From Bacteroidota bacterium (lineage in GTDB: Bacteria > Bacteroidota > Bacteroidia > Sphingobacteriales > Sphingobacteriaceae): a stretch of 64,000 nt of DNA. The stretch is from NCBI GenBank assembly GCA_040386815.1, contig JAZKET010000034.1, positions 61,236 to 125,235 on the forward strand, written 5' to 3'. The position numbers were made by a program, and so were the translations under genes. This document shows, piece by piece, positions 8,374 through 25,820 of this stretch. The stretch's first letter is position 1; the number at the start of each line of letters is the position of its first letter. The notes beneath the pieces are model-generated. The model was not told the DNA's origin. It saw only the letters and a program-made list of their open reading frames with translations, and did no database searches.

Positions 8374-8392
8374 AATTGTAAATGGTAATTTA

Positions 8393-9244: not shown

Positions 9245-9436
9245 TGGTATGCTATAAATGATATGGGTATTGCACAAATAAATTGGTAAGGTAAACTTAC
9301 AATAATTTTATAATTAATTGATCTAAATGCATTGCCAGCGCTACTAAACTTTAGCGCAAACGTTTGCATACTGACGATATTATTAACTAAATTGCCATAT
9401 ATCTTTACAGCTTTCTATCATATCATCGCTTTTAGT

Positions 9437-9802
9437 ATGCAACACAACGCCAAATCCCTTCGTCCGTTTATAGGTGCAAAAGATTTTGAACTGTCGCGTG
9501 CCTTTTACCGCGACCTTGGTTTTACTGAAACTGCCCTCAGCGCAGACCTATCTGTATTTAAAACCGGCACTATGGCTTTTTACTTACAGGATGCCTACGT
9601 GAAAAACTGGATAGACAACACCATGCTATTTTTAGAAGTTGATGATGTAAGCCGCTTTTGGGATGATCTATCGGCACTTAACTTACCGGCAAAATATCCC
9701 GGCGTGCGCGCAACCCCACCACGAACACTGGAATGGGGGCGCGAATGCTTTTTGCATGATCCATCTGGAATATTGTGGCATTTTGGTGAGTTTAAGGGGT
9801 AA
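9437..9802 (+). CDS. VOC/glyoxalase family protein
   Basis: RPFIGAKDFELSRAFYRDLGF and EWGRECFLHDPSGILWHFG; ATG at 9437 preferred. Confidence 0.88.
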   Translation: MQHNAKSLRPFIGAKDFELSRAFYRDLGFTETALSADLSVFKTGTMAFYLQDAYVKNWIDNTMLFLEVDDVSRFWDDLSALNLPAKYPGVRATPPRTLEWGRECFLHDPSGILWHFGEFKG

Positions 9803-9838
9803 GCCAATTCTTTCAGCTTTGAAAGAATGGCCTTTTTA
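9803..9838. terminator. Bidirectional terminator
   Basis: GCCAATTCTTTCA-gctt-TGAAAGAATGGC followed by a T-run, between convergent genes. Confidence 0.65.
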
Positions 9839-9851
9839 TTACGTAGCACTA

Positions 9852-11441
9852 TCATCCCACTACAATCTCTTGTTTTACCCAAACCTGTTGTAAAAACCAT
9901 TCATCGTGCGATACCACCAACAGCGTACCCCTATAATCGGCAATGGCGGCAGTTAATATCTCTATGTTTTGCATATCAAGGTTGTTGGTAGGCTCGTCCA
10001 GTATGATCATATCTGGCGCTTGTTGGGCTATGGTAAGGCTGCACAGCATCAGGCGCATCTTTTCGCCGCCGCTTAAGGCATGGCAAGGTTTGTCCCAATC
10101 GTTCTTAGTAAATAAAAAACGATTAAGCCTTATCTTGATATCATGCTCTTGCAGTGCGCCGGTGTTATAGTGCTGCGCCTGTTGGTAAACTGTAAGGCTG
10201 TTATCTACCAGCGAATAATCCTGATCAATGTAGATAGCATTTACAGCCGCCAAATCAATACTACCCTGTTGTGATGGCATTTGCCCAAGAATCATTTTTA
10301 TCAGCGTGGTTTTGCCCGAACCATTTAAGCCCTTTATTGTTATCCTGTCGCCGCTATATATTTCAAAGCTTAAGCCTTCTTTCCAAAGCAAAACATCCCC
10401 ATAAATTACATTTACCGCATTTGCTTTAACCAAAGTTTTTCCTTTGTGCAATGCAGAGGTATCCAAATCAACTTTCATCTTATCCCCATCAGGCAAAGCA
10501 GAACGCAATTGCGAAAGCTGCTGCGATATGGCTTCAATCTTTCCGGTATGTATGCCTTTTATTTTTGAGGTACTGCGTTCGGCACTATTGCGCATAGTAT
10601 TCATCATAATAGCAGGCATGCCGGCTTTCTCCTGTTTCCTTTTGCCGCGCGCATCCAGCTTTTGCTGGCGTTCCACAGTTTCGCGTTCTACATCACGGGC
10701 CTTACGCAAGGCTTTTTCCTTGCTCTTTACATCAGCATTTAGCGCGTCGTGGGCAATAGCTTTTTGTTCGGCATAAAATTCATAATTACCGCCATATGTC
10801 GTTATCCCATTAGGTGCAAGCTCACAAACGGTAGCTAACAGGTTAAGCAAAGCGCGGTCATGACTTACCACCACCAACGTATTATTTGTATCCTTAATAT
10901 AGTTGTACAACATTTGCCGCCCCTGCCTATCCAGATGATTGCTTGGCTCATCCATCAAAACAATATCGGGCTTATGCAAATCAATGCCCGCCAAAAACAC
11001 TTTGGTTTTTTGCCCGCCACTTAGGGTGCCCATGCTTTCGTGAGGCGCCAAATCCATCAGCCCCCATTTGGCCAGGGCTGTTTGGCAACGTTCTTCAATG
11101 GTCCAATCGTCATTTAATGCGGCCATGGTTTCATCGCTTACATCGCCGTTTAAAATTTGGGCAAAGGCCTGTAATTTATCATCAATACCCAATGCCTGCG
11201 CAATAGTAACATGGTTATACTGACCAAAAATTTGTGGCACATAGTACGGCCGGGTATCGGTTTTAACCATGCCCGCAAACGGCACAAGCTCACCGGCCAT
11301 TAACTTTAAAAGCGTTGATTTTCCGGTGCCATTATTGCCTATTAAGGCTACTTTATTGTTTTTGTTGATGATGAGATCCAAACCACGGAAAAGCACATCA
11401 CGATTGGGGTGTATATAGGTAATATCCTGTAATAAAATCAT
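9852..11441 (-). CDS. ABC-F family ATPase (ribosome-associated, possibly ARE-type)
   Basis: Two ABC cassettes (GNNGTGKS, LSGGQ, DEPSNHLD, SHDR; GLNGSGKT, LSGGE, DEPTNNLD, SHDE) joined by a charged helical linker; no TM segments. Confidence 0.92.
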   Translation of the reverse strand: MILLQDITYIHPNRDVLFRGLDLIINKNNKVALIGNNGTGKSTLLKLMAGELVPFAGMVKTDTRPYYVPQIFGQYNHVTIAQALGIDDKLQAFAQILNGDVSDETMAALNDDWTIEERCQTALAKWGLMDLAPHESMGTLSGGQKTKVFLAGIDLHKPDIVLMDEPSNHLDRQGRQMLYNYIKDTNNTLVVVSHDRALLNLLATVCELAPNGITTYGGNYEFYAEQKAIAHDALNADVKSKEKALRKARDVERETVERQQKLDARGKRKQEKAGMPAIMMNTMRNSAERSTSKIKGIHTGKIEAISQQLSQLRSALPDGDKMKVDLDTSALHKGKTLVKANAVNVIYGDVLLWKEGLSFEIYSGDRITIKGLNGSGKTTLIKMILGQMPSQQGSIDLAAVNAIYIDQDYSLVDNSLTVYQQAQHYNTGALQEHDIKIRLNRFLFTKNDWDKPCHALSGGEKMRLMLCSLTIAQQAPDMIILDEPTNNLDMQNIEILTAAIADYRGTLLVVSHDEWFLQQVWVKQEIVVG

Positions 11442-11644: not shown

Positions 11645-12250
11645 ATGCGCATAGGCACAAATATTTATAAAATGTTTTTTTTGTGGGGATCTCTGGTCTT
11701 CATAACAACGTCAGCATCGGCACAAAACCGCCTGCAAGAGTTTGACGACCGGATAATGATAGACCTGGCAGAGCATCGCACACCGCAGAAAACCGGGTTC
11801 ATGATGTTCATGTCAGACACTTACCGTTACGGCGATATTGGCATACCTGCGGGCCTGCTTATTGCCGGCGTAGCCACTAACGACCGCAATATGCGCGAGA
11901 ACGCGGGCTATATTGCCAGTAGCACAGCTATATCGTGGGGCCTTACCTTTTTAATAAAACATATTGTAAAACGCCCGCGCCCCTTTGTACAAAATCTAAA
12001 AATTGTCCCGGTTTATAAAGCGGGCAGTACGTCGTTCCCTTCGGGACATACATCAACAACCATCGCCACTGCTACAGCGCTTTCTATGGCCTATCCTAAA
12101 TGGTACGTTATTGCCCCGGCATTTATGTGGGCGGGTACTGTAGGGTATTCGCGTATGTATTTAGGGGTGCATTACCCTACCGATGTTGGCGCGGGTGCTT
12201 TGTTGGGTGCGGGTACTGCGTTGAGTATGTCGTTTATGCGGGTGCGGTAG
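11645..12250 (+). CDS. PAP2 family phosphatase
   Basis: KHIVKRPRP, SFPSGH, SRMYLGVHYPTDV. Confidence 0.93.
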   Translation: MRIGTNIYKMFFLWGSLVFITTSASAQNRLQEFDDRIMIDLAEHRTPQKTGFMMFMSDTYRYGDIGIPAGLLIAGVATNDRNMRENAGYIASSTAISWGLTFLIKHIVKRPRPFVQNLKIVPVYKAGSTSFPSGHTSTTIATATALSMAYPKWYVIAPAFMWAGTVGYSRMYLGVHYPTDVGAGALLGAGTALSMSFMRVR

Positions 12251-12519: not shown

Positions 12520-14883
12520 ATGTTCCCGCAATTCTTCGACAAACCCTTTCGTTTACAACTATCGTTCGATAAAATTATCGAGGGCTTAGAAGATACTGCC
12601 TCAAACGATAGCGGCTGGCGTAGTATGAATGCCCATTCGTTATTAGAGCAGGTTGCCAAACACCCTGAACTACGCGACGGTCTTGTTAATGAAGAGCAGG
12701 TTGCTGTTAACGAAGAACTGATTGCCGAATTACTTGCAGACCTGTTTCCGAAAGCCTTAACGCTAAACGAAATAAAGGCTGTAAGCATTCCTTTTCAAAG
12801 CCTCATTTTTAATCATACCCAACGCTTTAAAAATATTTTGAAAGATGCGGGGTCTGATTTTGAGATCAATATCCGCGATTTTGGCGATCAGCAGTTGTAT
12901 GTAATGAGCTGCTGTATCATCCTTAATGAATTTTATAACACCAGGCTTGATTTTAGCAAGCCCATGTTTTATGATATACCTACGGCTAACGGCGTTATGC
13001 GCCATTACCGCATTTTATATAATGCCGATTTTCTGGAGATTTTAGAGACCGACAATTCGCCTAAGCTAACACAGGCAGATATTGATGAGTTGATGGATAA
13101 CTTTGACGATGTTGAACTGTGGAGGCAAAAAATACCACCGGGCAGCTACCTTATAAAAGGCTTTGGCTTAATGACTTTGGTTGATGTTACTGTTGAGAGC
13201 GCGCTGTCAACCCTTAAAAGTAATTTACTGGCCAACTATTCATCGCCAGAGGTTAAAGAAAGTTTGTTGTCAATTTTTAGGTCGATATATGGTATACCCG
13301 ATATGCGCATGGGCTTTACCTTGTTTGACAAAAACGAAGAGAAGTTTTTAAACGTACGTTTCGGGCCCGATTTTCATAGCTTTTTACTGCCCTACCAAAA
13401 GGCGCACGATACAGAAAAGATCCTGTGCGATAATTCTTTTAATTGCCTGGTGCATGAGCATCATTATTTCGCGGTGTCTGATGTGGCGCGTTATGTTGAG
13501 GAAAACCCTGAAGATAACTTCGGTAAGCATTTCCTTGAACAAGGCATTATGAGTTTCATCCTTGCACCAGTAATTAAGGATGGTGTTTTATTAGGGATAC
13601 TAGAGCTGGTATCGCCACGCATACGCGAGCTGAACAGCGTTACTGCCAACAAGCTGGATATTGTAATGCCGTTTCTGGTAGATACAGTAGACCGCAAGAT
13701 GAATGAAATGCAGAACCGCGTGCGGGCTGTCATTCAAAACTACTACACCACGCTGCACCCCAGCGTTTACTGGAAATTCCGTCGCGAAGCGCAAAATTAT
13801 ATCGAGCATAACAATAACAGTTTGGCTTACACGCTAAAAGAGATCAAATTTAAAGACGTTTATCCGCTTTACGGGCAGGTTGATATCAGCGATTCCTCTC
13901 TCACCCGTAACCTGAGTGTGAGTAATGATCTGGGGAACCACATGGCACGTTTGATCCAATTGTTAAAAGAGATCAATAAGGCCGGCAATAAACCGCACGT
14001 AACGCAAATATTGTTCGACCTTACTACTTTCTCTGACGAGTTAAAGCAGAGCATACGTGCGGATACAGAGCAGTTTATACAGCATTATATTGAGGACAAG
14101 GTGCACCCGGTGCTTACCGCCGCTGCCGTAAACGCTAATTTTAAAATACAGGTAGATAATTACTTTAAACAAGCCGATAGTTTAAAGGGCGATTTCCACG
14201 CTAACCGCCGTAATTACGATAAAACACTGTCGCTGATCAATCAAAAACTGGCTGGTATTCTGGACCATCGCCAGGCCGAGATCCAGGAGTTTTACCCGCA
14301 TTATTATGAACGCTTCAAAACCGATGGGGTTGAGCACAATATGTACATTGGCGAAACTATTGCACCTGATCGGGAATTTACGTTGAAGGATCTGCACCGT
14401 TTACGCTTATGGCAAATGCGGGTAATTGCCGAAATGGAAATTGAGCAGTATGATCTGAAAAGCTTGTTGCCATATTCGTTAGGTGTAACGTCGCTGATAC
14501 TGGTTTTCAGTACGCCGATAGCTATCCGTTTCAGAATGGATGAGAAACATTTTGATGTGGACGGCGCTTACAATATCCGCTACGAAGTAATTAAAAAGCG
14601 GATTGATAAAGCTCATATTAAAGAAAGCACCGAGCGTATTACCAAGCAAGGAAAGATCACCATCATCTACTCAAAAGCCGAAGAAGAAACAGAGTACATG
14701 GGCTATATCAAAATTCTGCAAGACGAAGGCGTACTGGCCGACGATGTAGAACATTTTGAGGTAGAAGAACTACAAGGCGTAGCCGGCCTAAAAGCCTTGC
14801 GGGTTGGCCTTATCCACCATGATCAAAACCTGCTGGCGCACCGTGCCGCAAGCTATGACAAGCTGTACGATAGGATAAGTTAA
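12520..14883 (+). CDS. GAF domain protein with a putative divergent class III nucleotidyl cyclase C-terminal domain
   Basis: GAF-like segment SFILAPVIKDGVLLGILELVS. C-terminal motifs LYGQVDISDSS, RFKTDGV, KHFDVDGAYN, GKITII and ELQGV follow the cyclase order. The cyclase call is inference. Confidence 0.8.
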   Translation: MFPQFFDKPFRLQLSFDKIIEGLEDTASNDSGWRSMNAHSLLEQVAKHPELRDGLVNEEQVAVNEELIAELLADLFPKALTLNEIKAVSIPFQSLIFNHTQRFKNILKDAGSDFEINIRDFGDQQLYVMSCCIILNEFYNTRLDFSKPMFYDIPTANGVMRHYRILYNADFLEILETDNSPKLTQADIDELMDNFDDVELWRQKIPPGSYLIKGFGLMTLVDVTVESALSTLKSNLLANYSSPEVKESLLSIFRSIYGIPDMRMGFTLFDKNEEKFLNVRFGPDFHSFLLPYQKAHDTEKILCDNSFNCLVHEHHYFAVSDVARYVEENPEDNFGKHFLEQGIMSFILAPVIKDGVLLGILELVSPRIRELNSVTANKLDIVMPFLVDTVDRKMNEMQNRVRAVIQNYYTTLHPSVYWKFRREAQNYIEHNNNSLAYTLKEIKFKDVYPLYGQVDISDSSLTRNLSVSNDLGNHMARLIQLLKEINKAGNKPHVTQILFDLTTFSDELKQSIRADTEQFIQHYIEDKVHPVLTAAAVNANFKIQVDNYFKQADSLKGDFHANRRNYDKTLSLINQKLAGILDHRQAEIQEFYPHYYERFKTDGVEHNMYIGETIAPDREFTLKDLHRLRLWQMRVIAEMEIEQYDLKSLLPYSLGVTSLILVFSTPIAIRFRMDEKHFDVDGAYNIRYEVIKKRIDKAHIKESTERITKQGKITIIYSKAEEETEYMGYIKILQDEGVLADDVEHFEVEELQGVAGLKALRVGLIHHDQNLLAHRAASYDKLYDRIS

Positions 14884-14897
14884 ACTCTTTACTTTGT

Positions 14898-14985
14898 TGT
14901 CATTTCGAAACGAGGAACGAGTGAGAAATCTTATCCTCGCGATTTGGCATCCGTATAAGATCTCTCGCTATGCTTCGAAATGACA
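14898..14985. repeat. Palindromic repeat TGTCATTTCGAA...GAGAAATCT...AGATCTCTC...TTCGAAATGACA
   Basis: 12-bp terminal inverted repeat plus inner arms, between convergent genes; may act as a terminator. Confidence 0.75.
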
Positions 14986-14998
14986 TTTTGTTTTAACC

Positions 14999-17536
14999 TC
15001 AAAATCTAAACCCAGCCGTGATATAAGGATACGCGCCCTCTTTTGAGAAACCAACCACACCCTGTATCAATATCAGCTGCGCCGGTAAAAAAAAGACACC
15101 ACCGCCATAACCCATGTGCCAGGTATCAGAGTTTTCGCCCGGCGACCATACACGGCCGACATCATCAAACCCAACCAGCCCAACAGTGCCCGGCAACAGG
15201 TACGACGTAAAATCAAACAGCTTTACTCTTACCTCAAAATTGTTAAAGGCCATGGTTTTTCCGGTGAAGCGCCACTGATAAAAGCCACGTAAATTGTTGT
15301 TACCGCCCAATTTTAATTGCTGATAGTACGACGCGTTACCTACAGTTGTGCCTATACCTGTACGGTTGCCAAACACCAGTTTATAATTATCGCCGGGATC
15401 ATACAGAAAGCTGAAGTCAGACTCTATCTGCCCATAATTATGCGCATCGGGGTTTAGTGATTTCATGGCGCTGAAACTGGTTGTCCATAAAATACCCGAG
15501 TGTTGCACAATGTTCTTATCGCGTGTGTCTAAAGTAAATGCGCCAACTATACCCACATTACCCTGGCCGGCAAACACATTTTCTTTCGGATGAGCAAGGT
15601 CGTAATCTTTCAAAAAACGGGTTTGGTTATCGTCCCTGTCGCCGTTGTAGTATTGGGCAGAGACACCAGCGCTTACCGTCCAGTTGTTATCATAAGTATG
15701 CCGCAAGCGGATATCGGCATTTATCAGGTTATAAACGTTGCGGTAATAACGAATGCGTTTGCCCTCTTCATTTACAAAAACGCTGTTGTTTCCCACACCA
15801 AAAAAGTTGCTTACAAAGTTTGGCCCCCGGTTGGTTATGTTTACTATCAGGTCGTTCTTTTTTACAGCTTGCTTAAACTCGCCCTCGTAATTTAACCACA
15901 ATGAGCTTACGCCAAGGCCATAGTTTGCCGTAAAACTTTGCCTAAACGCATACGGATCTTTCTTAAAACCCTGCTTTTGCCATACCAGTTTGGTGATAAG
16001 CTGTAAGCCGTAGTCTTTATTATAACTACCTAAAAACAGTGGCTGCAAAAAGTCATACTTAAAATTCTTGTTCAAGTATTTATTCACCATCGTATCCGTT
16101 GACAAACGGCGGCGGGCGAAACCGCTTTCAGGCAGGTTGTTCTTCTCATCGCTCCGGTCATAAATGTACCGGTTGCCGCGGCCGGTGATATTGCTGTCAA
16201 CCATAAAGTTGTCCTTATCATCGCCACCCACCATCCTGATCTTTATAGGCGAACTGTTTTTGCCATGCACCGCAAAATAATCTTCATTACCCTGCCCGTA
16301 CAGGCGCACTTCTTCGGTAACTTTAGGGTCGAAAGTGCGCTCGTAAATAACATTGTCGCGCTGGCCCTCTTTGTTTATTTTGGTGATGGTTACCTTAACA
16401 CTGCCATCCTGCTGGTTGGTGATGTCAAAATATTCGTGCTTATCTGTGCCCGGAATATCTACTTTATTTGATATAAAGCGGTAATACCTCATTGCTTGCC
16501 GCTTAAGCACATTACGGCGTGCAATCATTTTGCTGACGATCTCCTGTCCGCTTATTTTATAAATATTAGGCGGCATTAATTTTATCGCCCTGGTAATCAC
16601 CTCATCGGTAAGCTTGGTTTGTACAATATTGATCTGCTCTTCCCAATCTTTTTCATTCAGGCCATTTAAAAAGAAACGGTCGAAATTACGCGCGTTCAAA
16701 TTCCAGCGTCTTACAGAGCGGATATGATCTTCATAACTCTGAAATTTCGACATCAGCAAATGCCTTGACACCAGCCAGGGCATAACGCCTGATGTGCTGT
16801 AATACACCTGGTCCCTATCCCTTGGTATAGGCTCATAAACACTGCCTTTATCGGTTTTTATCTTCTCCCAGCGCCATTGATCCTCGTGGCGGTCCCAGTC
16901 GCCCAGCAGCATATCCAGCAGGCGGGCACGCAGCACCGTTTTCTGATTTACGCTGTTATCGTTATCCTCTTTTAATTTTTCGAAGGCTTTGTCGGTGTTA
17001 TCTGTTTTCTTCGCGTCAAGCGGCTCTCGTTCTTCAAACAAAAACACCTGGTTGGCAAAGTCTTTTCTAAACTCGCCCAGGGCAGGGTCATCGGGTACGA
17101 AAACAATCTCGGGATTAGCGTGCGGCACGTTCAACGCTTTTGCCAGCGGCGGTACGGTAACAGCAGCAAAAGGGTGTTCGGTAACTATCTGATCATCCAA
17201 AATAGAGGCCGCGATGGTTTTTCTCAGCGTTGGTGGCAACACGCGTTCAGGGTATTTCTGGATAGAACGCAGCACCCACTCCTGCCCGGTTTTATCTTCC
17301 AGACGTACAGATTTGGTTTGCATACCGCCGCCACGCTCTGTAGCTTTCAGTCCTCCTTTTTCTTTTGTGATACGAAACACGCGCATTTTAACCGGCGCCG
17401 CCCAAAGCTTGCGGTAACTTTCGCCACTATCATACCTGGGTTCAATAGCCACGGTAATGCTGTCGCCTTTTATCTGCGCAAACGTTTTTGCAGATATGGC
17501 CAAGAGGAAAATCAAAAGCAGGTAACGTTTTCCCAT
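14999..17536 (-). CDS. Omp85 (BamA/TamA-like) outer-membrane protein with an N-terminal atypical-kinase-like domain
   Basis: Signal peptide; GGGMQT, GDWDRHEDQ and PRDRDQ kinase-like motifs; GxGxDxF beta-repeats; barrel with LGGNNNLRGF lid-loop motif and terminal GFRF. Confidence 0.82.
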   Translation of the reverse strand: MGKRYLLLIFLLAISAKTFAQIKGDSITVAIEPRYDSGESYRKLWAAPVKMRVFRITKEKGGLKATERGGGMQTKSVRLEDKTGQEWVLRSIQKYPERVLPPTLRKTIAASILDDQIVTEHPFAAVTVPPLAKALNVPHANPEIVFVPDDPALGEFRKDFANQVFLFEEREPLDAKKTDNTDKAFEKLKEDNDNSVNQKTVLRARLLDMLLGDWDRHEDQWRWEKIKTDKGSVYEPIPRDRDQVYYSTSGVMPWLVSRHLLMSKFQSYEDHIRSVRRWNLNARNFDRFFLNGLNEKDWEEQINIVQTKLTDEVITRAIKLMPPNIYKISGQEIVSKMIARRNVLKRQAMRYYRFISNKVDIPGTDKHEYFDITNQQDGSVKVTITKINKEGQRDNVIYERTFDPKVTEEVRLYGQGNEDYFAVHGKNSSPIKIRMVGGDDKDNFMVDSNITGRGNRYIYDRSDEKNNLPESGFARRRLSTDTMVNKYLNKNFKYDFLQPLFLGSYNKDYGLQLITKLVWQKQGFKKDPYAFRQSFTANYGLGVSSLWLNYEGEFKQAVKKNDLIVNITNRGPNFVSNFFGVGNNSVFVNEEGKRIRYYRNVYNLINADIRLRHTYDNNWTVSAGVSAQYYNGDRDDNQTRFLKDYDLAHPKENVFAGQGNVGIVGAFTLDTRDKNIVQHSGILWTTSFSAMKSLNPDAHNYGQIESDFSFLYDPGDNYKLVFGNRTGIGTTVGNASYYQQLKLGGNNNLRGFYQWRFTGKTMAFNNFEVRVKLFDFTSYLLPGTVGLVGFDDVGRVWSPGENSDTWHMGYGGGVFFLPAQLILIQGVVGFSKEGAYPYITAGFRF

Positions 17537-17541
17537 AGGGG

Positions 17542-18405
17542 CTATTTTTTAAAAGTAAATTTCAACACGTTACCGGGCGTTATCTCATCCCCCTCGTTGC
17601 TGATGTATAAATTATGCTGATTATCAAAAGCCAAACCTTCCGGCTGTAAAAACAGCGCCGGATTAAGCGAATAGACCCCTTTTACTTTAAACGCGGCATC
17701 GGCTATCACCAATAATTTATTGATAGATGCTACAATGAACCACTCACCCGTACCTGGATTTTTTGCAAATGCCGAGGGGCGAAACGCGAATTTCTTTTTG
17801 TTTACCTGTGCTTCAATAGGCTTAGTGTCTATACTAAAGCCACCGGCTGGCGTAACCACGCCGTTAGCTGCCAGTTTAAACTTGTAGCCGGCCGTAGTTC
17901 GGACTTTATCGCCGCCACAATCTTTACACAATATATAAAGCAGGCCGGCTTTTTCATCGCCATACATGCTCTCATACTCGCCTTTGGGTAACAGGTCTTT
18001 TACCTCAACCACATTTGCTGCTGCTTCAGACCATACCTGGTTAAACGGAAAAATATATAGTGTGCCGTTACTCTTAAGCACTACAATCTGGTTGCCCAGT
18101 ATGGTAATATCTTCGTAATCGCCGCTTTTAGCAAAACGGCTGTATTTAGGCGTTTCTTTGCTGCCGGGTTTAAAGTAAAACACTTTCCCTTCTTCATCCT
18201 GTTCGGCAAACAGCATATCCGGCTTGCCATTATGAAATGTAATGCCCGATATCTCGGCCAACGCGTCAGACATATTGTCCTTTACCGGACTATTCAGATC
18301 ATACCCCGGCGGAGTAGGATAGGTCTTTTTTTCAAAACAAGCTATACCAGTTAACATGGCTAATACGATACAAATTATGGCTATAAATCCTTTTAAACCT
18401 TTCAT
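17542..18405 (-). CDS. SdiA-regulated/YjiK-like beta-propeller lipoprotein
   Basis: GIAC lipobox; EISGIT, AEQDEEG, DYEDIT, QPEGLAFD. Confidence 0.8.
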   Translation of the reverse strand: MKGLKGFIAIICIVLAMLTGIACFEKKTYPTPPGYDLNSPVKDNMSDALAEISGITFHNGKPDMLFAEQDEEGKVFYFKPGSKETPKYSRFAKSGDYEDITILGNQIVVLKSNGTLYIFPFNQVWSEAAANVVEVKDLLPKGEYESMYGDEKAGLLYILCKDCGGDKVRTTAGYKFKLAANGVVTPAGGFSIDTKPIEAQVNKKKFAFRPSAFAKNPGTGEWFIVASINKLLVIADAAFKVKGVYSLNPALFLQPEGLAFDNQHNLYISNEGDEITPGNVLKFTFKK

Positions 18406-20420
18406 GCTTTACTTTTCAAATATTGATAAACCCAGCGTTGCGATTGTACAGCAGGCTCAGTTACTTCAACAGGTACATTTTCTATTTTTTCATTAAGCCA
18501 TACGGCTTGTACGTTATCCGTTAGCTGAATGTTAATGATATCCATCACCTCCTGCTTAATCTCCTTATCATACACCGGGAAACACACCTCAACCCTACGA
18601 TATACATTGCGGTTCATCCAGTCTGCCGAACCCATAAAAACCTCGGGCTGCCCGTTATTCTCAAAAACAAACACGCGGCCATGCTCCAGGTATCTATCAA
18701 CAATCCGTTTAATGGTAATGTTTTCGCTCATCGCTTTTGCGCCCGGTATCAGGCGGCAAATGCTGCGCACAATCAACGACACCTTAACCCCTGCATTTGA
18801 TGCATCGTACAGTTTACTGATAAGCTTGCTTTCCTCCAGGTTGTTTAATTTTATGGTGATGGCCGCAGGCAAACCTTTTTGGGCATTGACAATCTCGCGG
18901 TCTATCAGCTCAAAAAAGCGTTGCTGTAAACCAAACTGCGCTACCAGCAAATGCTCAAATTTTATCAGATCTGCCGATTTTGGCTTTTCGCGTTTACGCA
19001 GAAAAATAAACAGCAACTCCACCTCGCGCAGTATGGCCTTGTTGGCTGTCATCAATATATGGTCGGTGTAAAACTCGGCCGTATTCTCATTAAAGTTGCC
19101 GGTTGATAGCAGGCCATAATATTTTATCCGGTCATTCACCCGGCGCTTTACCAGCGCTACCTTGGCATGTACCTTTAGTGCGGTTACGCTATAAATAATC
19201 TCGGCGCCGGCGGCTTTAAGGCGGTTGGCCCATTTAATGTTGTTAGCCTCGTCAAAACGAGCTTTCAACTCTATCAGCACTGTAACCTTTTTACCTGCGG
19301 ATGCGGCGTTTACCAACGCGTTAACAATCCTTGAATCTTTTGCTACGCGATACAGGGTGATATAGATCTCTTCTACCGCCTCATCCAAAGCGGCCGCGTT
19401 AAAGAAACGCAGAATGGTATCGTACGATTGATAAGGCGTATTTATCAGCAGATCTTTGCGTTCTATCTGATCAAAAATGGCTTCGTCGGCGCTTAATCGT
19501 TTATATATCGTCGGCCATTTATCGTACTTCAAATTTGCCTGACTTAGCGGGAAAGCAAACAGATCTTTCAGGTTATGATAATTGCCGCCCTCCACCAGGC
19601 TCGATGGCTCTATCGACCAGCTTTCGCAAACCATCTGCAAAATATTTTCGGGGATACCGGGCTGGTGCAAAAAGCGGGTGGCTATACCCAGATCGCGCTT
19701 TTGCAATTGTTCTTCCACCTGCTCGGCCAGGTCGCCGGGATACTCGTCTTTCAGGTCAAGTTCCGCGTCGCGGGTTATCTTGAAGGCGTAGCAGCCGGTA
19801 ACGGCCTCATCTCTAAATAGCTTATCCAAATTATAACGGATAATATCATCTAAAAACAAGATGTAGGTTTTGTCGCCCTCGTCAACCTTATAAAACCTTG
19901 GCAAATCCGGGGGGATATTTAGCACCAGTACTTTCTCTTCGTCCCCGCCCAGGGTAATTAAAAAATACAGCTCGTTATTTTGGGGGAAGAATTTCTTTTT
20001 GGGCGATAGTTTAAAGGGGCGCAAAAAGGCCATCACCTGGCTAAAAAAATAATCGTTCAGCTGGTCTACCAATTTGGCCGGAGGCGGCTGATTAATTAAC
20101 AGGTGAATGTTACTCTCCTTCAACTGCGCTATCACTTTGGTTATGCCTTTACCAAAATCATGCTGTTGCTGCATAATCAGTTTTTGCGCTACCGAAAGCG
20201 GATCATCAACCACACTGGTGGTAGTGGTTAGTTTGCCCAGCTTATCCATAGCCTGCAGCACGGGCATACGCACCCGGTAAAATTCATCCAGGTTCGACGA
20301 GAATATCGCCATAAAATTTACGCGCTCCAGCAGCGGCACATCACTTTGCAAAGCCGTTTGCAAAATGCGCCCGTTAAAGGTGAGCCAGCTAAGGTCGCGG
20401 TCAAAAAAAGCGTAAGCCAT
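18402..20420 (-). CDS. ppk1: Polyphosphate kinase 1
   Basis: DRDLSWLTFNGRIL, SSNLDEFYRVR, TLYRV, IELKARFDEANN, LKVHAK, TGNFN, DRYLEHGR, SADWMNRN. Confidence 0.97.
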   Translation of the reverse strand: MAYAFFDRDLSWLTFNGRILQTALQSDVPLLERVNFMAIFSSNLDEFYRVRMPVLQAMDKLGKLTTTTSVVDDPLSVAQKLIMQQQHDFGKGITKVIAQLKESNIHLLINQPPPAKLVDQLNDYFFSQVMAFLRPFKLSPKKKFFPQNNELYFLITLGGDEEKVLVLNIPPDLPRFYKVDEGDKTYILFLDDIIRYNLDKLFRDEAVTGCYAFKITRDAELDLKDEYPGDLAEQVEEQLQKRDLGIATRFLHQPGIPENILQMVCESWSIEPSSLVEGGNYHNLKDLFAFPLSQANLKYDKWPTIYKRLSADEAIFDQIERKDLLINTPYQSYDTILRFFNAAALDEAVEEIYITLYRVAKDSRIVNALVNAASAGKKVTVLIELKARFDEANNIKWANRLKAAGAEIIYSVTALKVHAKVALVKRRVNDRIKYYGLLSTGNFNENTAEFYTDHILMTANKAILREVELLFIFLRKREKPKSADLIKFEHLLVAQFGLQQRFFELIDREIVNAQKGLPAAITIKLNNLEESKLISKLYDASNAGVKVSLIVRSICRLIPGAKAMSENITIKRIVDRYLEHGRVFVFENNGQPEVFMGSADWMNRNVYRRVEVCFPVYDKEIKQEVMDIINIQLTDNVQAVWLNEKIENVPVEVTEPAVQSQRWVYQYLKSKA

Positions 20421-20421
20421 G

Positions 20422-21696
20422 TTAGTTAGCTAAAGGCGCGTCGTTATGCAGCGTTGAGGCTATAATATATGCCGCCACAGCAATGATCAACCCAAACATA
20501 AATATGTTATAAGCTACTCTTAAAAAGCGATACTTCCGGCCCAACACCACGCCCTGGCTGTATACGTCCTTTATCAGCGTGCCGTATAAAAAGCCTCGGT
20601 CATCCATCACTTTAAGCATGCCGGCGGTATACTCTTCCAACCCCATTTTATAAAAATTACCAAAGAATAGCAGGTTAACCTTTTTATCGTCAATATCCTG
20701 CGTAGTAAAAGTCCCTTCGGGGATAGCCGGGCGGGTAGCCAGTATCGAAAATATCATAGACAGCAAACTCACCGTCAGCAATATAAAACTCGGTATAGCC
20801 AGGAATGCGTTTTCCTCTAGCTTACGCAACACCAAACTGATAATGGCCGACAGGATAATAGAGTTAACCGTAATTAAAATATGAGCCTTATTATCGGCCA
20901 TATCGCTCAAGCGCTGGTTATTGCCCGATGTTATTCTGAACATGGTTTCAATGCCTTTGTCCGGCTTGTTTTTTTTCTCTTCTTTCTTTTTATCTTTTTT
21001 CTCGTCGGCAATAACTACTACCGGCACAGCTTGCACGGCAGCCTCGGTCTTGCTTTCTGCTTTGGTTTCCTTTGCAGCCTCTGGCTTATCTTCGGCAATG
21101 GTTTCCTGTTGTTTTTTCATTAGTTTGTCCAGGTTTTTTTTCTGCTGATCATGCAGTAACAACTGTGCGTAATCTGTAAAATAGGTATGTGTCTGTAGCA
21201 GCTCAATATTCTTCTGGCGCCAATGGTCCTTATCAATATCCAGGTGTTTTATAATATTAAACTCCTTGCGCAGCAGCTTGCTTTTGTCGGCAAAGTCATC
21301 GGTACCTAAATGGAACAGATCAGCATCGCACATAATTTGCTGCAGCTTACCGGTAGGTTTTTGAGGGATACGGGTGGCAAGAATACAATCATGCACTTTG
21401 GCAATTACCGCTTCATCAACCTTAAGGTGTTGTAAATGCGACACGGCCAGTTCGGCACCGGCAGCTTCGTGGTCGGCTTTGTCAATCAGGTAGCCAATAT
21501 CATGAAACCATGCGGCGGTTACCACCACAAAAAAATCTTCGTTGTTAAGCTGGTAATGGTTGGCAATTTGCGTGGCGGCGTCAACAACGCCTTTGGTATG
21601 TTCCAGATCATGGTACAGCAAATCGGCATCATGATGGCCGTCAAAATACCTTAAAACGTATTGCTTAACATCGCTTAATAATTGCTGATAATTCAT
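20422..21696 (-). CDS. HD-domain phosphohydrolase fused to a Pycsar-effector-like (PycTM/DUF5706) membrane domain
   Basis: HD motifs YHDLEHT, AWFHDIGY and DADLFHLG; charged linker; MADNKAHILITVN, NLLFFGNF and KYRFLRVAY with three TM helices. ATG 21696 is preferred over GTG 21720. Confidence 0.88.
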   Translation of the reverse strand: MNYQQLLSDVKQYVLRYFDGHHDADLLYHDLEHTKGVVDAATQIANHYQLNNEDFFVVVTAAWFHDIGYLIDKADHEAAGAELAVSHLQHLKVDEAVIAKVHDCILATRIPQKPTGKLQQIMCDADLFHLGTDDFADKSKLLRKEFNIIKHLDIDKDHWRQKNIELLQTHTYFTDYAQLLLHDQQKKNLDKLMKKQQETIAEDKPEAAKETKAESKTEAAVQAVPVVVIADEKKDKKKEEKKNKPDKGIETMFRITSGNNQRLSDMADNKAHILITVNSIILSAIISLVLRKLEENAFLAIPSFILLTVSLLSMIFSILATRPAIPEGTFTTQDIDDKKVNLLFFGNFYKMGLEEYTAGMLKVMDDRGFLYGTLIKDVYSQGVVLGRKYRFLRVAYNIFMFGLIIAVAAYIIASTLHNDAPLAN

Positions 21697-21721
21697 AGAA
21701 AAGGTGTTGGTGTTGCTCACC

Positions 21722-22886: not shown

Positions 22887-23152
22887 GCGGTCCGCGATTA
22901 CAAATCCGAACCAACTTCATGACTCTGCTGCTACCAAGCTGCTCCAGCGGAGCAAAATGTCGGTAGAAAAATCTCCCACATCTATATCCCGCGCCGTTAG
23001 GTGCGAAACTTAGGCGACTAACGAAACCCTTGATCATAGCGGATAAGTTATGTACCTACGGCACATATAAATTGCTGATATTATTTGCTACCGACATTAA
23101 ACCCCTACGGGGTTACCTTCAAGATGGGTAAGAATGTTAATGTTATTGCTTC
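22887..23152. repeat. REP-like element C, copy 2 (end overlaps the CHAT stop codon)
   Basis: Direct repeat of 22274-22541. Confidence 0.88.
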
Positions 23153-25766
23153 ATTTGTCTACGGATAACAAGCCATCCCCCCAAACCGAACACAATCGCC
23201 GCAATAGCAATTTGCAAAGGCACCCACGAATTTGCCGCCGGCAAATTCACCACCTCATCTGCCCCGGTTAACACCAGCGTATCCCAATAATATGGCAGGT
23301 ACAATGCATCGGCAGACTGCGCATGGTTTAGCCAGTTCAGCTTGGCATTGTGCAGGGCGGCAGCTGTGCTTTGGCTCTTCGTTAAACCCGCGTACATATC
23401 CGCCGTAATGCGCGCCACCGCATCGTCATTAACATTCCATAACCCCGATACCGTGGCCGCGGTACCTATAGCTATAAAACCACGCGACAGGCTGATAATA
23501 CCCTCGCCTTGTGCCAATGTGCCGTCGCCGGTGCGGCAGGCGCTTAGCACTACCAGGTTAGGCTTACGGGAACGCGCCAGCAGTTCAAACAAAAACAGTT
23601 TTTCTTTACCAAAATCAAGCGTAGGTTCATGGTTGGGGCCAGATAGGTAGGCGTGCGTGCTGATGTGCAGGGCAGCCGAATTTTCAAACGACTTAAAAAA
23701 CGAAACAGTATTTACGTCGTCATCATACAAATAATTGCCTTCAACCAATTTCTCAATAGCGGCCGACTCCTGTTTTACGGCCATAATGGGTTTATCGTCG
23801 GCACTGTTATGCGTCATAAACAAACCGCTAAAACTGCCATTGTATTTAATGAGAAAGCGTAACTCACAGTTAACTGCCTGATAAGGTAGGGCCATAGCGA
23901 CGGGGCGGGTTGAAACTTGCTATCGGTTATCAAGCCATCAAAAGACAAATAACCCAAAACATCATCAGGCACAATGCACAGTTTTTCATTTTTCTTTAGG
24001 GCGATATTTGCAAACAGCGTTTTATAAATAGCGTTCGACTGTTGAAAAAACACCTTAGGCGCGTTCACCATTCCAGCCGGACCATTACGATAAAAGGTAT
24101 CTACAAAACCGGTTACCTGCTTGCGGAATTGTTTTGCCCCATCTATGCGGTTAATTGCCCACGCCGACCGGTTTTTAACTTCAATAACATACAAAGCTTC
24201 CGCCCCGAAAAAGAACTCCAATACATGCGCATCAACAGGCAATTTCTTCAATATTTCATCTGCCGATGCTACCGAACCAACGGCCGTTTCACGATATTTT
24301 TTATTGAGCAGGGCCAAATCAAACTTCAAGGCATCTATCTTTTTTTGATATTCGGCCGGGTTGTTTTCCGTCATCATCAAACGCTCATTATAGCTAATGG
24401 CGCGTTCCATATCCAGCTTGCGACGCAGGGCTGCGTCGTTCTTGCCAGCCGCCAGGTTGTGGTAGGTTTTCTGTAGGTCATCTGCCAGCGTACGCGCCTT
24501 GGTTTGTTCGCTCACCGCTAATATCAGGTTTAGATATTTTGGCTGTTTGGTTTGCGCGTAAAGGTTGTAGGCTATTTCAATGGTTTCTTCGGCCAGTTCT
24601 TTTCCCTCTTTTTGCAGGCGTTCCTTGGTTTTATTGTCGGCAAATTCCTTGCGCATTTTATCAGTAGCCAACAGCGCATAGCGCATGTTTTCAAGCGCCA
24701 AAGCAGGCTGCTTTAGCGCCATGTAGGTAAGCGCCTTTTCATGGAAGATGTCAACCAGCTTATTCTCGCCATAAATTTTGTTTGCCGGGGTGATGTTCTG
24801 CACTGTGTTAATGCGCATAATCTGCAACGCGCTGTTTAAACAATTTAGCGCGTTTTGCCATTGCCCCTGTAAACGACATATCTTACCCAGTTGTGTAGTC
24901 AGATAGGCTTTTTCGCGCTGCCTGCCGTCAGCATAATATTTGTTAAGCAATTGCAGCGCTGTTTTAAACTCAGCTTGCGACTTATTTAGCTGGTTGGACT
25001 GCAAATAAATATTACCCAACGTAGTGTGGCTGCCCGTTAAACCATAAGCAGTTTCGCTGTCTATATTTTTTCGTGTAGCGATGTTTTTAATAAGCAGGGC
25101 TTCGGCTTGCTTTAACTCATTTTTTTGGAGCAGTATATCGGCCAGGGTATTATTCAGATTAAACCGTACTTGTGGGTCTTGCACCAGTGCCAGTCCTTTA
25201 GCTACACTTTCCCCGGCGTCATCATATCGCTCAATATTGTAGTATGATATGGCCACGTTGCTGTACAGGGCGGCTACCTTATCGGCCTCGGCAGTTTTGT
25301 TAAGCGCCGCAATGGTGTTTTGCTGTATAAAAATAGCCCGCTCATAATCGCCAAGGCGGGCGTAGTTATTGCCCAGCGGCTTTACTATGTATTCGGCAAA
25401 ATCAAACGCCGCCACGTTATGCTTTTTATAAAACGAATAAGCATCCTCATAACTGTTGATAGATTGCAAAATGTCGCCGGCCTGTAGTTGGTTATAGCCC
25501 TGGGTGGTTAGCAAGGTAAGCCAGGCTATTTGTTCATCGGCAGTCTTGGGTTGTCGCCAGGCTTGTTTGCGGGTGTCTGTTAAAAACGATTGCTGATTGG
25601 GATTAGCATTTGCGTAATCAATGTTGGCGTACAGCCATTCGGTTAAATTGTCCTGTTTTTTTAGCCCATTTAATATAGATTTTTTCGGATTTTTCTGGGC
25701 AAAACTCTGCAAACTGCAAAAGAACAGGCAAAAAAAAAGGCTGATTTTCCTAGGATTGATGAGCAT
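23143..25766 (-). pseudogene. TPR-CHAT (caspase-like) protease split by a frameshift near 23840
   Basis: ORF 25784/25766-23814 has a signal peptide, TPRs and the start of CHAT (IVPDDVLGYLSFDGL). ORF 23895-23143 has the rest, with catalytic LHISTHA and VVLSAC, SLW-like SGLWNV, PYYW and a C-terminal TM helix. The two frames overlap by 82 bp. Confidence 0.8.
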
Positions 25767-25820
25767 TGGCAGGATGTACGGCAATGCTAAAATAGGGAAT
25801 TTTCGCCAGTAAACGCGGGG

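What the first reader, a model, noticed from the sequence alone, without database searches (positions are those of the whole stretch)
14999..17536. Omp85 barrel carrying an atypical-kinase-like passenger (type Vd-like architecture)
Seen: a signal peptide, a Gly-rich loop ERGGGMQT and WVLRS. DMLLGDWDRHEDQW (about 16866-16920) resembles the D-x-x-x-G-N-x-D-R-H-x-x-N catalytic loop of PI3/4-kinase, HipA and CotH-like kinases, and PIPRDRDQ lies at the DFG position. GxGxDxF beta-repeats and a C-terminal barrel follow. Established: PlpD-type Vd proteins fuse an enzyme to an Omp85 barrel. From memory, related Bacteroidota proteins often carry an extra N-terminal metallophosphoesterase, which is absent here. 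Inference: a surface or periplasmic kinase, possibly using polyP or lipid substrates given the coupling to ppk1.
Basis: partly seen in the sequence, partly recalled or inferred. Interest (0 to 1): 0.75.

Follow-up and report, generated by a model that had tools for sequence, protein, structure and literature searches.

The report
Kinase-fold enzyme domain on Omp85 barrel
An outer-membrane barrel protein of a soil Mucilaginibacter carries an uncatalogued domain with the fold and invariant active-site-type residues of an atypical kinase, inside a conserved Bacteroidota operon with its own polyphosphate kinase copy, which hints at phosphate-transfer chemistry outside the cytoplasm.

Summary
ORF 14999-17536 (-) encodes an 845-aa protein: a signal peptide, a 334-aa N-terminal domain, an all-beta middle domain with two RTX-like GxGxD turns, and a 16-stranded Omp85 barrel.

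AlphaFold2 models are confident (pLDDT about 92). In Foldseek, all top 50 PDB hits for the N-domain are atypical kinases (CtkA, Rio2, PI4KII-alpha, HipA/HipT, CotH). No Pfam family covers the domain.

The "type Vd" analogy is weak. There is no POTRA domain, and stand-alone relatives are lipoproteins without a surface-export signal, so a periplasm-facing position is more likely.

The gene ends an operon: HD-PycTM, ppk1, propeller lipoprotein, this gene. That module recurs across Bacteroidota. The ppk1 here is a second paralogue; the housekeeping ppk1-ppx pair lies elsewhere.

Best reading: an outer-membrane-anchored phosphotransferase in a phosphate/polyphosphate envelope module. Substrate and donor are unknown, and activity and topology are untested.

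The long form was catalogued in 2014 as Omp85 "Metallo" without the kinase domain being noticed. This scan has already noted the same module on other DNA several times.

The parts
14999..17536 (-). Whole gene: 845-aa signal peptide + kinase-like domain + beta domain + Omp85 barrel (P0001)
17474..17536 (-). Sec signal peptide, residues 1-21, cleavage after TFA before Q
   Evidence: Read from the sequence; AF2 models helix 3-23 at low pLDDT
16466..17467 (-). Protein-kinase-like (PKL) fold domain, residues 24-357
   Evidence: AF2 pLDDT 92.8. Foldseek: CtkA, Rio2, PI4KII-alpha, HipA/T, CotH. No Pfam family
17315..17338 (-). Gly-rich loop ERGGGMQT (G69-G71), between strands 64-69 and 76-80
17255..17278 (-). 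Third strand WVLRSIQK with invariant R90 and K94, at the position of the ATP-binding Lys in kinases
   Evidence: the positional assignment is inferred
16868..16915 (-). Catalytic-loop-type motif DMLLGDWDRHEDQWRW (D213, D215, R216, H217, Q220), directly after helix 198-211
   Evidence: Invariance. Aligned to the CotH GxWD motif by hhalign
16808..16831 (-). PIPRDRDQ (D240, D242), after the beta hairpin 221-238; at the metal-binding 'DFG' position
   Evidence: Aligned to the CotH IPxDxD motif
16100..16465 (-). All-beta middle domain, residues 358-479, with two RTX-like G-x-G-x-(x)-D-x-F turns (412-421, 435-444). It takes the place of POTRA
   Evidence: AF2: ten strands, no helix. Family consensus GGxGxDxI. 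Calcium binding is inferred
15002..16051 (-). 16-stranded Omp85 barrel, residues 496-845, with the L6 motif NLRGF (15281-15295) and a C-terminal Phe
17542..18405 (-). Upstream gene, 5 nt away: probable lipoprotein with a SdiA-regulated/YjiK-like beta-propeller (P0002)
   Evidence: Same position in L001, L003, L004, L006. Present in 39 of 80 loci
18402..20420 (-). ppk1 paralogue (P0003); its stop overlaps the propeller gene's start
   Evidence: A second ppk1, adjacent to a Ppx-GppA gene, lies elsewhere in the genome
20422..21720 (-). HD phosphohydrolase fused to a PycTM-type membrane domain (P0005); first gene of the operon
   Evidence: Present in 45 of 80 loci. Within 10 kb in at least 76 of 122 genomes (hand tally)
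12520..14883 (+). Convergent 787-aa GAF-like protein (P0004), a recurrent member of the neighbourhood
   Evidence: Present in 26 of 80 loci
11645..12250 (+). PAP2 phosphatase upstream of the GAF-like gene
   Evidence: Same arrangement in L001 and L004
14898..14985 (.). Long hairpin in the 115-nt gap between the two convergent genes; probable bidirectional terminator
   Evidence: -35.7 kcal/mol, z -5.3

Best explanation
P0001 is an outer-membrane-anchored enzyme. After Sec export, its 16-stranded Omp85 barrel inserts in the outer membrane. The barrel holds a rigid two-domain arm, most likely on the periplasmic side where POTRA domains normally sit. The arm is an all-beta, probably calcium-binding domain plus a protein-kinase-like domain.

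The kinase-like domain is a distant relative of the CotH / HipA-CtkA / PI4KII group. It keeps a Gly-rich loop, a basic pair on the third strand (R90, K94), a catalytic loop G-D-W-D-R-H-x-D-Q, and a D-R-D metal-site motif. I therefore read it as an active phosphoryl-transfer (or nucleotidyl-transfer) enzyme.

The gene is the last of a four-gene operon: HD-PycTM inner-membrane protein, a dedicated PPK1 paralogue, a propeller lipoprotein, then this protein. That operon is one version of a module conserved across Bacteroidota. In other genomes the module also recruits a purple-acid-phosphatase-like domain, PAP2, His-phosphatase, a CotH lipoprotein and a phosphate-porin-like protein.

I infer that the module handles phosphate or polyphosphate in the cell envelope. 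The kinase-like domain would act on an envelope substrate, possibly with polyphosphate rather than ATP as donor.

Shown: the architecture, the fold, the residue conservation and the gene linkage. Inferred: catalysis, orientation, donor and substrate.
For: Fold:
- The full-length AF2 model has pLDDT 91.7 and pTM 0.85.
- The domain-only model has pLDDT 92.8 and pTM 0.91.
- All top 50 Foldseek PDB hits are kinases: CtkA 3akk/3akl at E 2.7e-6 and TM 0.41-0.46, then Rio2, PI4KII-alpha, HipT/HipA, CotH and LepB.

Motif position:
- The motifs fall where a kinase has them. The GGG loop lies between strands 1 and 2. R90/K94 lie on or just after strand 3. DWDRHEDQ follows the long helix 198-211. DRD follows the hairpin 221-238.
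- hhalign against a CotH profile aligns 175 columns at P 0.0096. It puts GDWD on CotH GxWD and IPRDRD on CotH IPxDxD.

Conservation:
- The residues are invariant or nearly so in 142 homologues and in 150 cluster representatives.

Extracytoplasmic location:
- The protein has a signal peptide.
- Long forms carry a secreted-type purple-acid-phosphatase-like domain with intact GD/GDxxY/GNHD/GHEH motifs.
- Stand-alone forms are lipoproteins without an acidic export signal.

Module:
- The same operon occurs in another Mucilaginibacter.
- Variants occur in Larkinella, Maribellus and Reichenbachiella.
- In 80 loci, HD-PycTM is present in 45, the propeller in 39, the GAF protein in 26 and ppk1 in 24.
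- A PycTM-type gene lies within 10 kb in at least 76 of 122 genomes that have the domain.

Polyphosphate link:
- The operon's ppk1 is a 41%-identical second copy, while the other ppk1 lies directly upstream of a Ppx-GppA gene on another contig.
- Related neighbourhoods hold CotH, Porin_O_P, PAP2 and His_Phos_1.
- A Gram-positive cassette pairs a secreted CotH-like kinase with a VTC polyP polymerase and a multi-TM protein (bioRxiv 10.1101/2024.04.20.589940).
Against: - No activity data exist.
- ATP is not known to be available in the periplasm, and no PKL-fold enzyme is known to use polyphosphate.
- The strand-3 basic residue at the usual Lys position is Arg (R90). The metal-binding Asn position is Gln (Q220). 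Both are unusual for active kinases.
- Structural similarity is moderate: TM below 0.5, rmsd 7-8 A.
- No sequence profile method places the domain in a kinase family. Pfam gives no hit. hhalign probability is 0.9% against HipA and 4.3% against CotH.
I could not check that the invariant residues line one cleft, or on which face of the barrel the arm sits.
- 31 of 80 loci have none of the partner genes within 10 kb, so some paralogues work outside the module.
Confidence: 0.5

Rival explanations
1. Type Vd-like autotransporter: the kinase-like domain is a passenger that its own Omp85 barrel exports to the cell surface, and perhaps releases. There it acts on external or neighbouring-cell targets.
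For: PlpD sets the precedent of an N-terminal enzyme on an Omp85 barrel (PMC4104836). The best structural match, CtkA, is a secreted kinase. Some CotH lipoproteins in related neighbourhoods carry an acidic stretch after the lipid-anchor Cys, as surface lipoproteins of Bacteroidota do (L157 ORF). The RTX-like turns suit a calcium-rich outside.
Against: There is no POTRA and no patatin domain. The kinase-like domain abuts the beta domain without a linker, and the model is rigid (pTM 0.85). Only 16 residues separate the beta domain from barrel strand 1. Four stand-alone lipoprotein relatives lack an acidic export signal. Omp85 N-terminal domains are periplasmic by default (established knowledge).
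Confidence: 0.2
2. Non-catalytic module: the kinase fold is a ligand-binding (pseudokinase-like) sensor that has replaced POTRA. It gates or targets the Omp85 barrel, whose real job is insertion or translocation of a partner such as the adjacent propeller lipoprotein, or passage of an anionic polymer.
For: Known Omp85 proteins are insertases or translocases. The L6 motif (NLRGF, R750/G751 invariant) typical of working BamA/TamA barrels is kept. The propeller gene sits immediately upstream in many lineages. R90 replaces the canonical Lys and Q220 the Asn. There are many invariant Arg/Lys/His residues (R42, R78, R90, K94, R170, R205, R216, R241, R287, H139, H217), which would suit binding of a polyanion.
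Against: Pseudokinases usually lose the catalytic Asp residues. Here D213, D240 and D242 are 151/151 and D215 144/151 across distant representatives. Long forms add an intact phosphoesterase on the same chain, which suggests chemistry rather than sensing alone.
Confidence: 0.2
3. Component of a Pycsar-like anti-phage defence locus: a cyclase-like GAF protein signals to the PycTM effector, and the barrel protein is an accessory effector.
For: P0005 matches PycTM models in Pfam and PADLOC. A class III cyclase sits in the GAF protein's position in Larkinella.
Against: Only the PycTM part matches any defence model; P0001, P0002 and P0004 match none. The domain is found in 122 of 301 sampled Bacteroidota genomes and 56 of 144 genera, usually at one conserved locus, unlike patchy defence islands. 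The partners are phosphate-metabolism genes.
Confidence: 0.03

Closest known systems
CotH atypical kinases (Pfam PF08757; B. cereus CotH, PDB 5JD9/5JDA)
   Same: Both have a PKL fold (Foldseek E 7.8e-4). The motifs correspond: G-x-W-D catalytic loop and I-P-x-D-x-D metal site (hhalign, 175 columns, P 0.0096). Both often work outside the cytoplasm. CotH lipoproteins occur in the same HD-PycTM neighbourhoods in other Bacteroidota.
   Different: The PF08757 model gives no hit. This family has Gln instead of Asn after the catalytic loop, a DRH triplet as in PI3/4-kinases, and fusion to an Omp85 barrel. The genome has six separate true CotH genes.
HipA / HipT / CtkA and PI4KII-alpha kinases
   Same: These are the best structural matches (CtkA E 2.7e-6; PI4KII-alpha 1.7e-4; HipT/HipA 1.8e-4 and weaker). 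The catalytic loop D-R-H-x-D-Q-W resembles DRHxxN of PI3/4-kinases and DxHxxN of HipA (the comparison is from my own knowledge).
   Different: The profile comparison with HipA is negative (probability 0.9%). Those kinases are cytoplasmic or host-delivered and have no membrane barrel.
Omp85 'Metallo' subfamily of Heinz and Lithgow 2014 (PMC4104836)
   Same: It is the same protein family. The long forms are PF00149 + this domain + Omp85 barrel, and that paper lists PF00149-Omp85 fusions.
   Different: The paper calls PF00149 a metalloprotease and does not mention a kinase-like domain. The protein here is a short form without PF00149. It would probably have fallen among the 'noNterm' proteins, whose barrels that paper found similar to 'Metallo'.
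Type Vd autotransporters (PlpD)
   Same: An N-terminal enzyme domain on a 16-stranded Omp85-type barrel.
   Different: PlpD has a patatin passenger and one POTRA domain. Both are absent here. Export of the domain is not indicated.
Streptococcus intermedius pel-operon cassette: secreted CotH-like kinase + VTC-type polyP polymerase + multi-TM protein (bioRxiv 10.1101/2024.04.20.589940)
   Same: It has the same three roles side by side: an extracytoplasmic atypical kinase, a polyphosphate synthase and a small membrane protein.
   Different: The protein families differ for the synthase (VTC versus PPK1) and the membrane protein. It is Gram-positive and has no outer-membrane barrel. It is itself uncharacterised.
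SEAE1, a PKL family from Segetibacter aerophilus (bioRxiv 10.64898/2026.09.18.752743)
   Same: A newly described PKL-fold family, mostly from Bacteroidota, near a PAP2 gene, with D..N..D spacing like D215/Q220/D240.
   Different: It is described as intracellular and has Asn at the position where this family has Gln. A profile search of the S. aerophilus genome found four PKL-Omp85 paralogues, and none fits the SEAE1 residue numbering. It is therefore a different protein.

Membership tests
Omp85 superfamily | C-terminal 16-stranded beta-barrel resembling BamA/TamA | tested here: met
   AF2 gives 16 long strands in residues 496-845. Foldseek finds BamA, TamA and Sam50 at E 7e-11 to 1e-9.
Omp85 superfamily | Match to curated sequence models above threshold | tested here: inconclusive
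   NCBIfam Omp85_fam gives E 2.3e-23 but 83 bits against a cut-off of 200. PF01103 does not hit P0001 itself, but it hits 20 of 30 aligned homologues.
Omp85 superfamily | Conserved L6 loop (V/I)RG(Y/F) motif and C-terminal aromatic residue | tested here: met
   NLRGF at residues 748-752 with R750 and G751 invariant. The protein ends in ...GFRF.
Omp85 superfamily | One or more POTRA domains (beta-alpha-alpha-beta-beta) before the barrel | tested here: not met
   Residues 358-479 form ten strands and no helix. No POTRA hit in Pfam. POTRA-less Omp85 subfamilies are known (PMC4104836).
Type Vd autotransporter (PlpD) | Patatin-like lipase passenger | tested here: not met
   No patatin hit. The N-domain has a kinase fold.
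Type Vd autotransporter (PlpD) | Single POTRA between passenger and barrel | tested here: not met
Type Vd autotransporter (PlpD) | Passenger exposed on the surface or released | not testable with these tools
   Needs protease shaving or immunolabelling. Indirect evidence favours the periplasm.
Protein-kinase-like (PKL) superfamily | Bilobal kinase fold | tested here: met
   All top 50 Foldseek PDB hits are kinases; probability 1.00 for the top hits, with TM 0.41-0.46 for the best (CtkA) hits.
Protein-kinase-like (PKL) superfamily | Gly-rich loop between the first two strands of the N-lobe | tested here: met
   G69 G70 G71 lie between strands 64-69 and 76-80. G69 and G70 are present in 149 and 148 of 151 sequences.
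Protein-kinase-like (PKL) superfamily | ATP-binding Lys on the third strand | tested here: inconclusive
   Strand 86-91 ends in invariant R90, and invariant K94 follows. Which residue reaches the phosphates cannot be told without coordinates.
Protein-kinase-like (PKL) superfamily | Catalytic loop Asp ... Asn after the long C-lobe helix | tested here: inconclusive
   D215-R-H-E-D-Q220 lies directly after helix 198-211. The Asp is present (144/151), but the Asn position is Gln (148/151).
Protein-kinase-like (PKL) superfamily | Metal-binding Asp (DFG position) after the beta hairpin | tested here: met
   D240 and D242 are 151/151, directly after strands 221-227 and 232-238. They align to CotH IPxDxD.
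Protein-kinase-like (PKL) superfamily | Phosphotransferase activity | not testable with these tools
   A biochemical assay is needed.
CotH family (PF08757) | Match to the family HMM | tested here: not met
   No PF08757 hit for P0001 or for 30 homologues at E up to 5. The same model hits six other genes of this genome.
Omp85 'Metallo' subfamily (PF00149 + Omp85) | N-terminal PF00149 metallophosphoesterase domain | tested here: not met
   Absent from P0001 and present in its roughly 1,200-aa homologues. P0001 is a short form of the same lineage.
Pycsar defence system | PycC-type cyclase plus PycTM/PycTIR effector in a mobile, patchily distributed locus | tested here: not met
   Only the PycTM part of P0005 matches PADLOC models. 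The locus is widely and stably conserved.

The most novel reading that the evidence does not exclude
The operon is a trans-envelope polyphosphate system. The dedicated PPK1 paralogue, together with the three-helix PycTM-type membrane protein, makes polyphosphate and passes it across the inner membrane, as the eukaryotic VTC complex does. In the periplasm, the Omp85-anchored CotH-like domain uses that polyphosphate, not ATP, as phosphoryl donor to modify an envelope lipid, glycan or protein. The propeller, the purple-acid-phosphatase-like domain, PAP2 and His-phosphatase partners trim or reverse the modification. This would be the first periplasmic kinase system in bacteria and the first bacterial route for polyphosphate export.
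Probability: 0.15. Interest if true: 0.9.

Novelty: new variant of a known kind. Interest (0 to 1): 0.68.

Why it matters
Kinases are thought of as cytoplasmic enzymes because ATP is there. This family places a kinase-fold domain with an intact-looking active site outside the inner membrane, bolted to an Omp85 barrel.

- It occurs in about four in ten sampled Bacteroidota genomes. The sample presumably includes gut, oral, soil and marine lineages.
- No Pfam model covers the domain. The searchable literature held no paper with both 'Omp85' and 'kinase-like'.
- It is steadily linked to a PycTM-type membrane protein, and often to a second PPK1.

These links give a concrete, testable entry to two open questions: whether bacteria carry out regulated phosphorylation in the periplasm, and whether and how polyphosphate leaves the cytoplasm. 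The finding also shows that a membrane module known only from Pycsar phage defence has a housekeeping relative. Finally, it corrects the 2014 description of the 'Metallo' Omp85 subfamily, which is a phosphoesterase plus a kinase-like domain, not a protease.

Tried and rejected
- Sequence searches for the N-domain found nothing. Pfam and NCBIfam gave no hit. Pfam on 30 homologues at E up to 5 gave none. The PDB gave none by phmmer or by profile.
- hhalign against a HipA profile built from 29 Bacteroidota HipA genes gave probability 0.9% and a meaningless alignment. The relation to HipA is visible only in structure.
- I tested whether the family is the SEAE1 family of a September 2026 preprint, because the Asp spacing is the same. 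I rejected this: the S. aerophilus genome has four PKL-Omp85 paralogues, none fits the SEAE1 numbering, and SEAE1 has Asn where this family has Gln.
- The Riemerella metallophosphoesterase paper (PMC8208144) was not held. A review describes that enzyme as a T9SS-secreted effector, so it is probably not this family.
- Anti-phage defence reading: rejected.
The operon call rests on 1-nt, overlapping and 5-nt gene junctions.
- The sigma-70 promoter and terminator scans were at chance level.
- Model coordinates are not returned by the tools. I therefore could not superpose the active site or read the orientation of the arm relative to the barrel.
Full report
WHAT IS THERE. The minus-strand ORF 14999-17536 encodes 845 residues. 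It begins with a typical Sec signal peptide that ends TFA|Q.

A full-length AlphaFold2 model, built on 142 homologues, is confident (pLDDT 91.7, pTM 0.85). It divides the mature protein into three parts:
- an alpha/beta domain, residues 24-357;
- an all-beta domain of ten strands, residues 358-479;
- a barrel of 16 long strands, residues 496-845.

The barrel is an Omp85 barrel:
- NCBIfam Omp85_fam matches residues 593-845 (E 2.3e-23, below the curated cut-off).
- Foldseek finds BamA, TamA and Sam50 barrels at E about 1e-10.
- The L6 motif NLRGF and a C-terminal Phe are present.

The middle domain has no helix, so it is not a POTRA domain. Its two conserved turns follow the RTX pattern (family consensus GGxGxDxI). 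That suggests calcium binding, but this is an inference.

THE N-TERMINAL DOMAIN. No sequence method recognises it.
- Pfam gives no family for the protein, or for 30 homologues at E up to 5.
- The PDB gives no match by sequence or by profile in this region.

A separate model of residues 24-357 has pLDDT 92.8 and pTM 0.91. Its Foldseek search of the PDB returns only kinases among the top 50:
- H. pylori CtkA (E 2.7e-6, TM 0.41-0.46);
- Rio2;
- PI4KII-alpha;
- HipT and HipA;
- CotH;
- LepB;
- Fam20C.

The similarity is at fold level (TM below 0.5).
- The GGG loop lies between the first two strands.
- R90 and K94 lie on and just after the third strand.
- GDWDRHEDQ lies directly after the long helix 198-211.
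- DRD lies directly after the hairpin 221-238.

A profile comparison with HipA fails. A comparison with a CotH profile gives a weak but topologically sensible alignment of 175 columns (P 0.0096, probability 4.3%). It places GDWD on CotH GxWD and IPRDRD on CotH IPxDxD.

These residues are invariant in 142 homologues. They are almost invariant in 150 cluster representatives of 37-60% identity: D213, D240 and D242 151/151, R90, K94 and H217 150/151, Q220 148/151, D215 144/151.

Two features are atypical for active kinases. Arg stands at the usual Lys position, and Gln at the usual Asn position.

THE FAMILY. The domain has 2,752 relatives at E up to 1e-3 among 1.84 billion cluster representatives. 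It was found in 122 of 301 sampled Bacteroidota genomes and 56 of 144 genera. This genome has one copy.

That domain has the purple-acid-phosphatase motif set and matches such phosphatases in the PDB.

Heinz and Lithgow listed these PF00149-Omp85 fusions in 2014 as the 'Metallo' subfamily. They called the domain a metalloprotease and did not mention a kinase-like domain (PMC4104836). No held paper contains both 'Omp85' and 'kinase-like'.

A September 2026 preprint describes another new PKL family from Bacteroidota, SEAE1. I checked and it is a different protein.

WHERE THE DOMAIN SITS. N-terminal domains of Omp85 proteins are periplasmic unless threaded through the barrel (established knowledge). 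Several points bear on this protein:
- The kinase-like domain joins the beta domain without a linker.
- The model is rigid.
- Only 16 residues precede barrel strand 1.
- Stand-alone relatives have lipoprotein or plain signal peptides, and the four lipoproteins examined lack the acidic export signal of Bacteroidota surface lipoproteins.

I therefore favour a periplasm-facing arm, at roughly two to one over surface display. The 'type Vd passenger' picture fails two of its three structural criteria: there is no patatin domain and no POTRA.

THE NEIGHBOURHOOD. The gene is last in a tight minus-strand series:
- HD-PycTM, 20422-21720;
- ppk1, 18402-20420, beginning 1 nt after the HD-PycTM stop;
- a probable propeller lipoprotein of the SdiA-regulated/YjiK type, 17542-18405, whose start overlaps the ppk1 stop;
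- this gene, 5 nt after the propeller gene.

A PAP2 phosphatase gene and a 787-aa GAF-like gene converge on the series from the other side. A strong hairpin lies in the gap between them.

The same four-gene operon is present in another Mucilaginibacter. Rearranged versions occur in Larkinella, Maribellus and Reichenbachiella. Counts in 80 loci from named genomes with 10-kb flanks:

| Partner within 10 kb | Loci (of 80) |
|---|---|
| HD-PycTM | 45 |
| Propeller | 39 |
| GAF-like protein | 26 |
| ppk1 | 24 |
| At least one partner | 49 |

I compared by hand the coordinates printed. At least 76 of the 122 genomes with the domain have a PycTM-type gene within 10 kb on the same contig. Six more have one at 11-12 kb.

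The ppk1 in this operon is a second copy, 41% identical to the other. The other ppk1 lies directly upstream of a Ppx-GppA gene on another contig.

In three other Bacteroidota, the HD-PycTM neighbourhood holds a true CotH lipoprotein, a phosphate-porin-like protein, PAP2 and a His-phosphatase. One of the three also has the kinase-Omp85 gene there, and two do not.

A Gram-positive cassette described in a 2024 preprint has the same three roles: a secreted CotH-like kinase, a VTC polyphosphate polymerase and a multi-TM protein.

Only the PycTM part matches any anti-phage defence model. The wide, stable distribution also argues against a defence island.

MOST LIKELY MECHANISM. I read the protein as an outer-membrane-anchored, probably periplasm-facing phosphotransferase. 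It belongs to a conserved envelope module concerned with phosphate or polyphosphate.

Shown here:
- the architecture;
- the fold;
- the residue conservation;
- the gene linkage;
- the dedicated ppk1 paralogue.

Inferred:
- that the domain is catalytically active;
- that it faces the periplasm;
- that polyphosphate, not ATP, is the donor;
- what it modifies.

The main rivals are surface display of the domain and a non-catalytic ligand-binding role that controls the barrel. Neither is excluded.

STANDING. This scan has already noted the same module on other DNA. I used those notes only as leads. The CotH and polyphosphate leads were checked here, as were the module conservation and the kinase fold. 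The claim that the GAF-like protein hides a cyclase fold was not checked.

Relative to the published record, this is an uncatalogued branch of the kinase-like superfamily in an unusual place and fusion. I class it as a new variant of a known kind. A more novel system-level reading remains possible.

Noticed in passing
window 32288-33871 (-): A 527-aa ORF is a true CotH-family kinase (PF08757, E 1.1e-46). The genome has six CotH matches in all, so this bacterium has several extracytoplasmic-type atypical kinases besides the Omp85-linked one.
   Followed up: partly
window 14898-14985: A long, nearly perfect hairpin (-35.7 kcal/mol, z -5.3) lies in the 115-nt gap between the convergent Omp85-fusion and GAF-like genes. 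It is probably a bidirectional terminator.
   Followed up: partly
G000 contig C113, L158:3560-6504 (-): A second ppk1 (41% identical) lies directly upstream of a Ppx-GppA gene, the classical pair. The ppk1 in the window is therefore an extra, operon-specific paralogue.
   Followed up: yes
L155:4771-10122, L156:6549-11310, L157:5664-13162: In three other Bacteroidota genomes, HD-PycTM is flanked by a CotH lipoprotein, a Porin_O_P-like protein and PAP2, and in two of them also by a small His_Phos_1 protein. In two genomes there is no kinase-Omp85 gene nearby, as if CotH can take its place.
   Followed up: partly
L010, L012, L013, L026, L030, L037 (about 7500-9900): In other Mucilaginibacter and Pedobacter, a paralogue of the 787-aa GAF-like protein (about 30% identity) sits on the same strand between the propeller gene and the kinase-Omp85 gene. 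In this window it is convergent instead.
   Followed up: no
L003:10642-11970 (-): In Larkinella terrae, a 442-aa class III nucleotidyl cyclase (PF00211) occupies the convergent position held by the GAF-like protein in this window. This fits, but does not prove, the idea that the GAF-like protein is a cyclase.
   Followed up: no
window 23143-25784 (-): Two overlapping ORFs carry TPR repeats (23814-25784) and the C-terminal half of a CHAT protease domain (23143-23895). This is consistent with one gene split by a frameshift.
   Followed up: no
G301 (Segetibacter aerophilus), L088-L091: This genome has four paralogues of the family: one long form with the phosphoesterase domain and three short forms.
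   Followed up: partly
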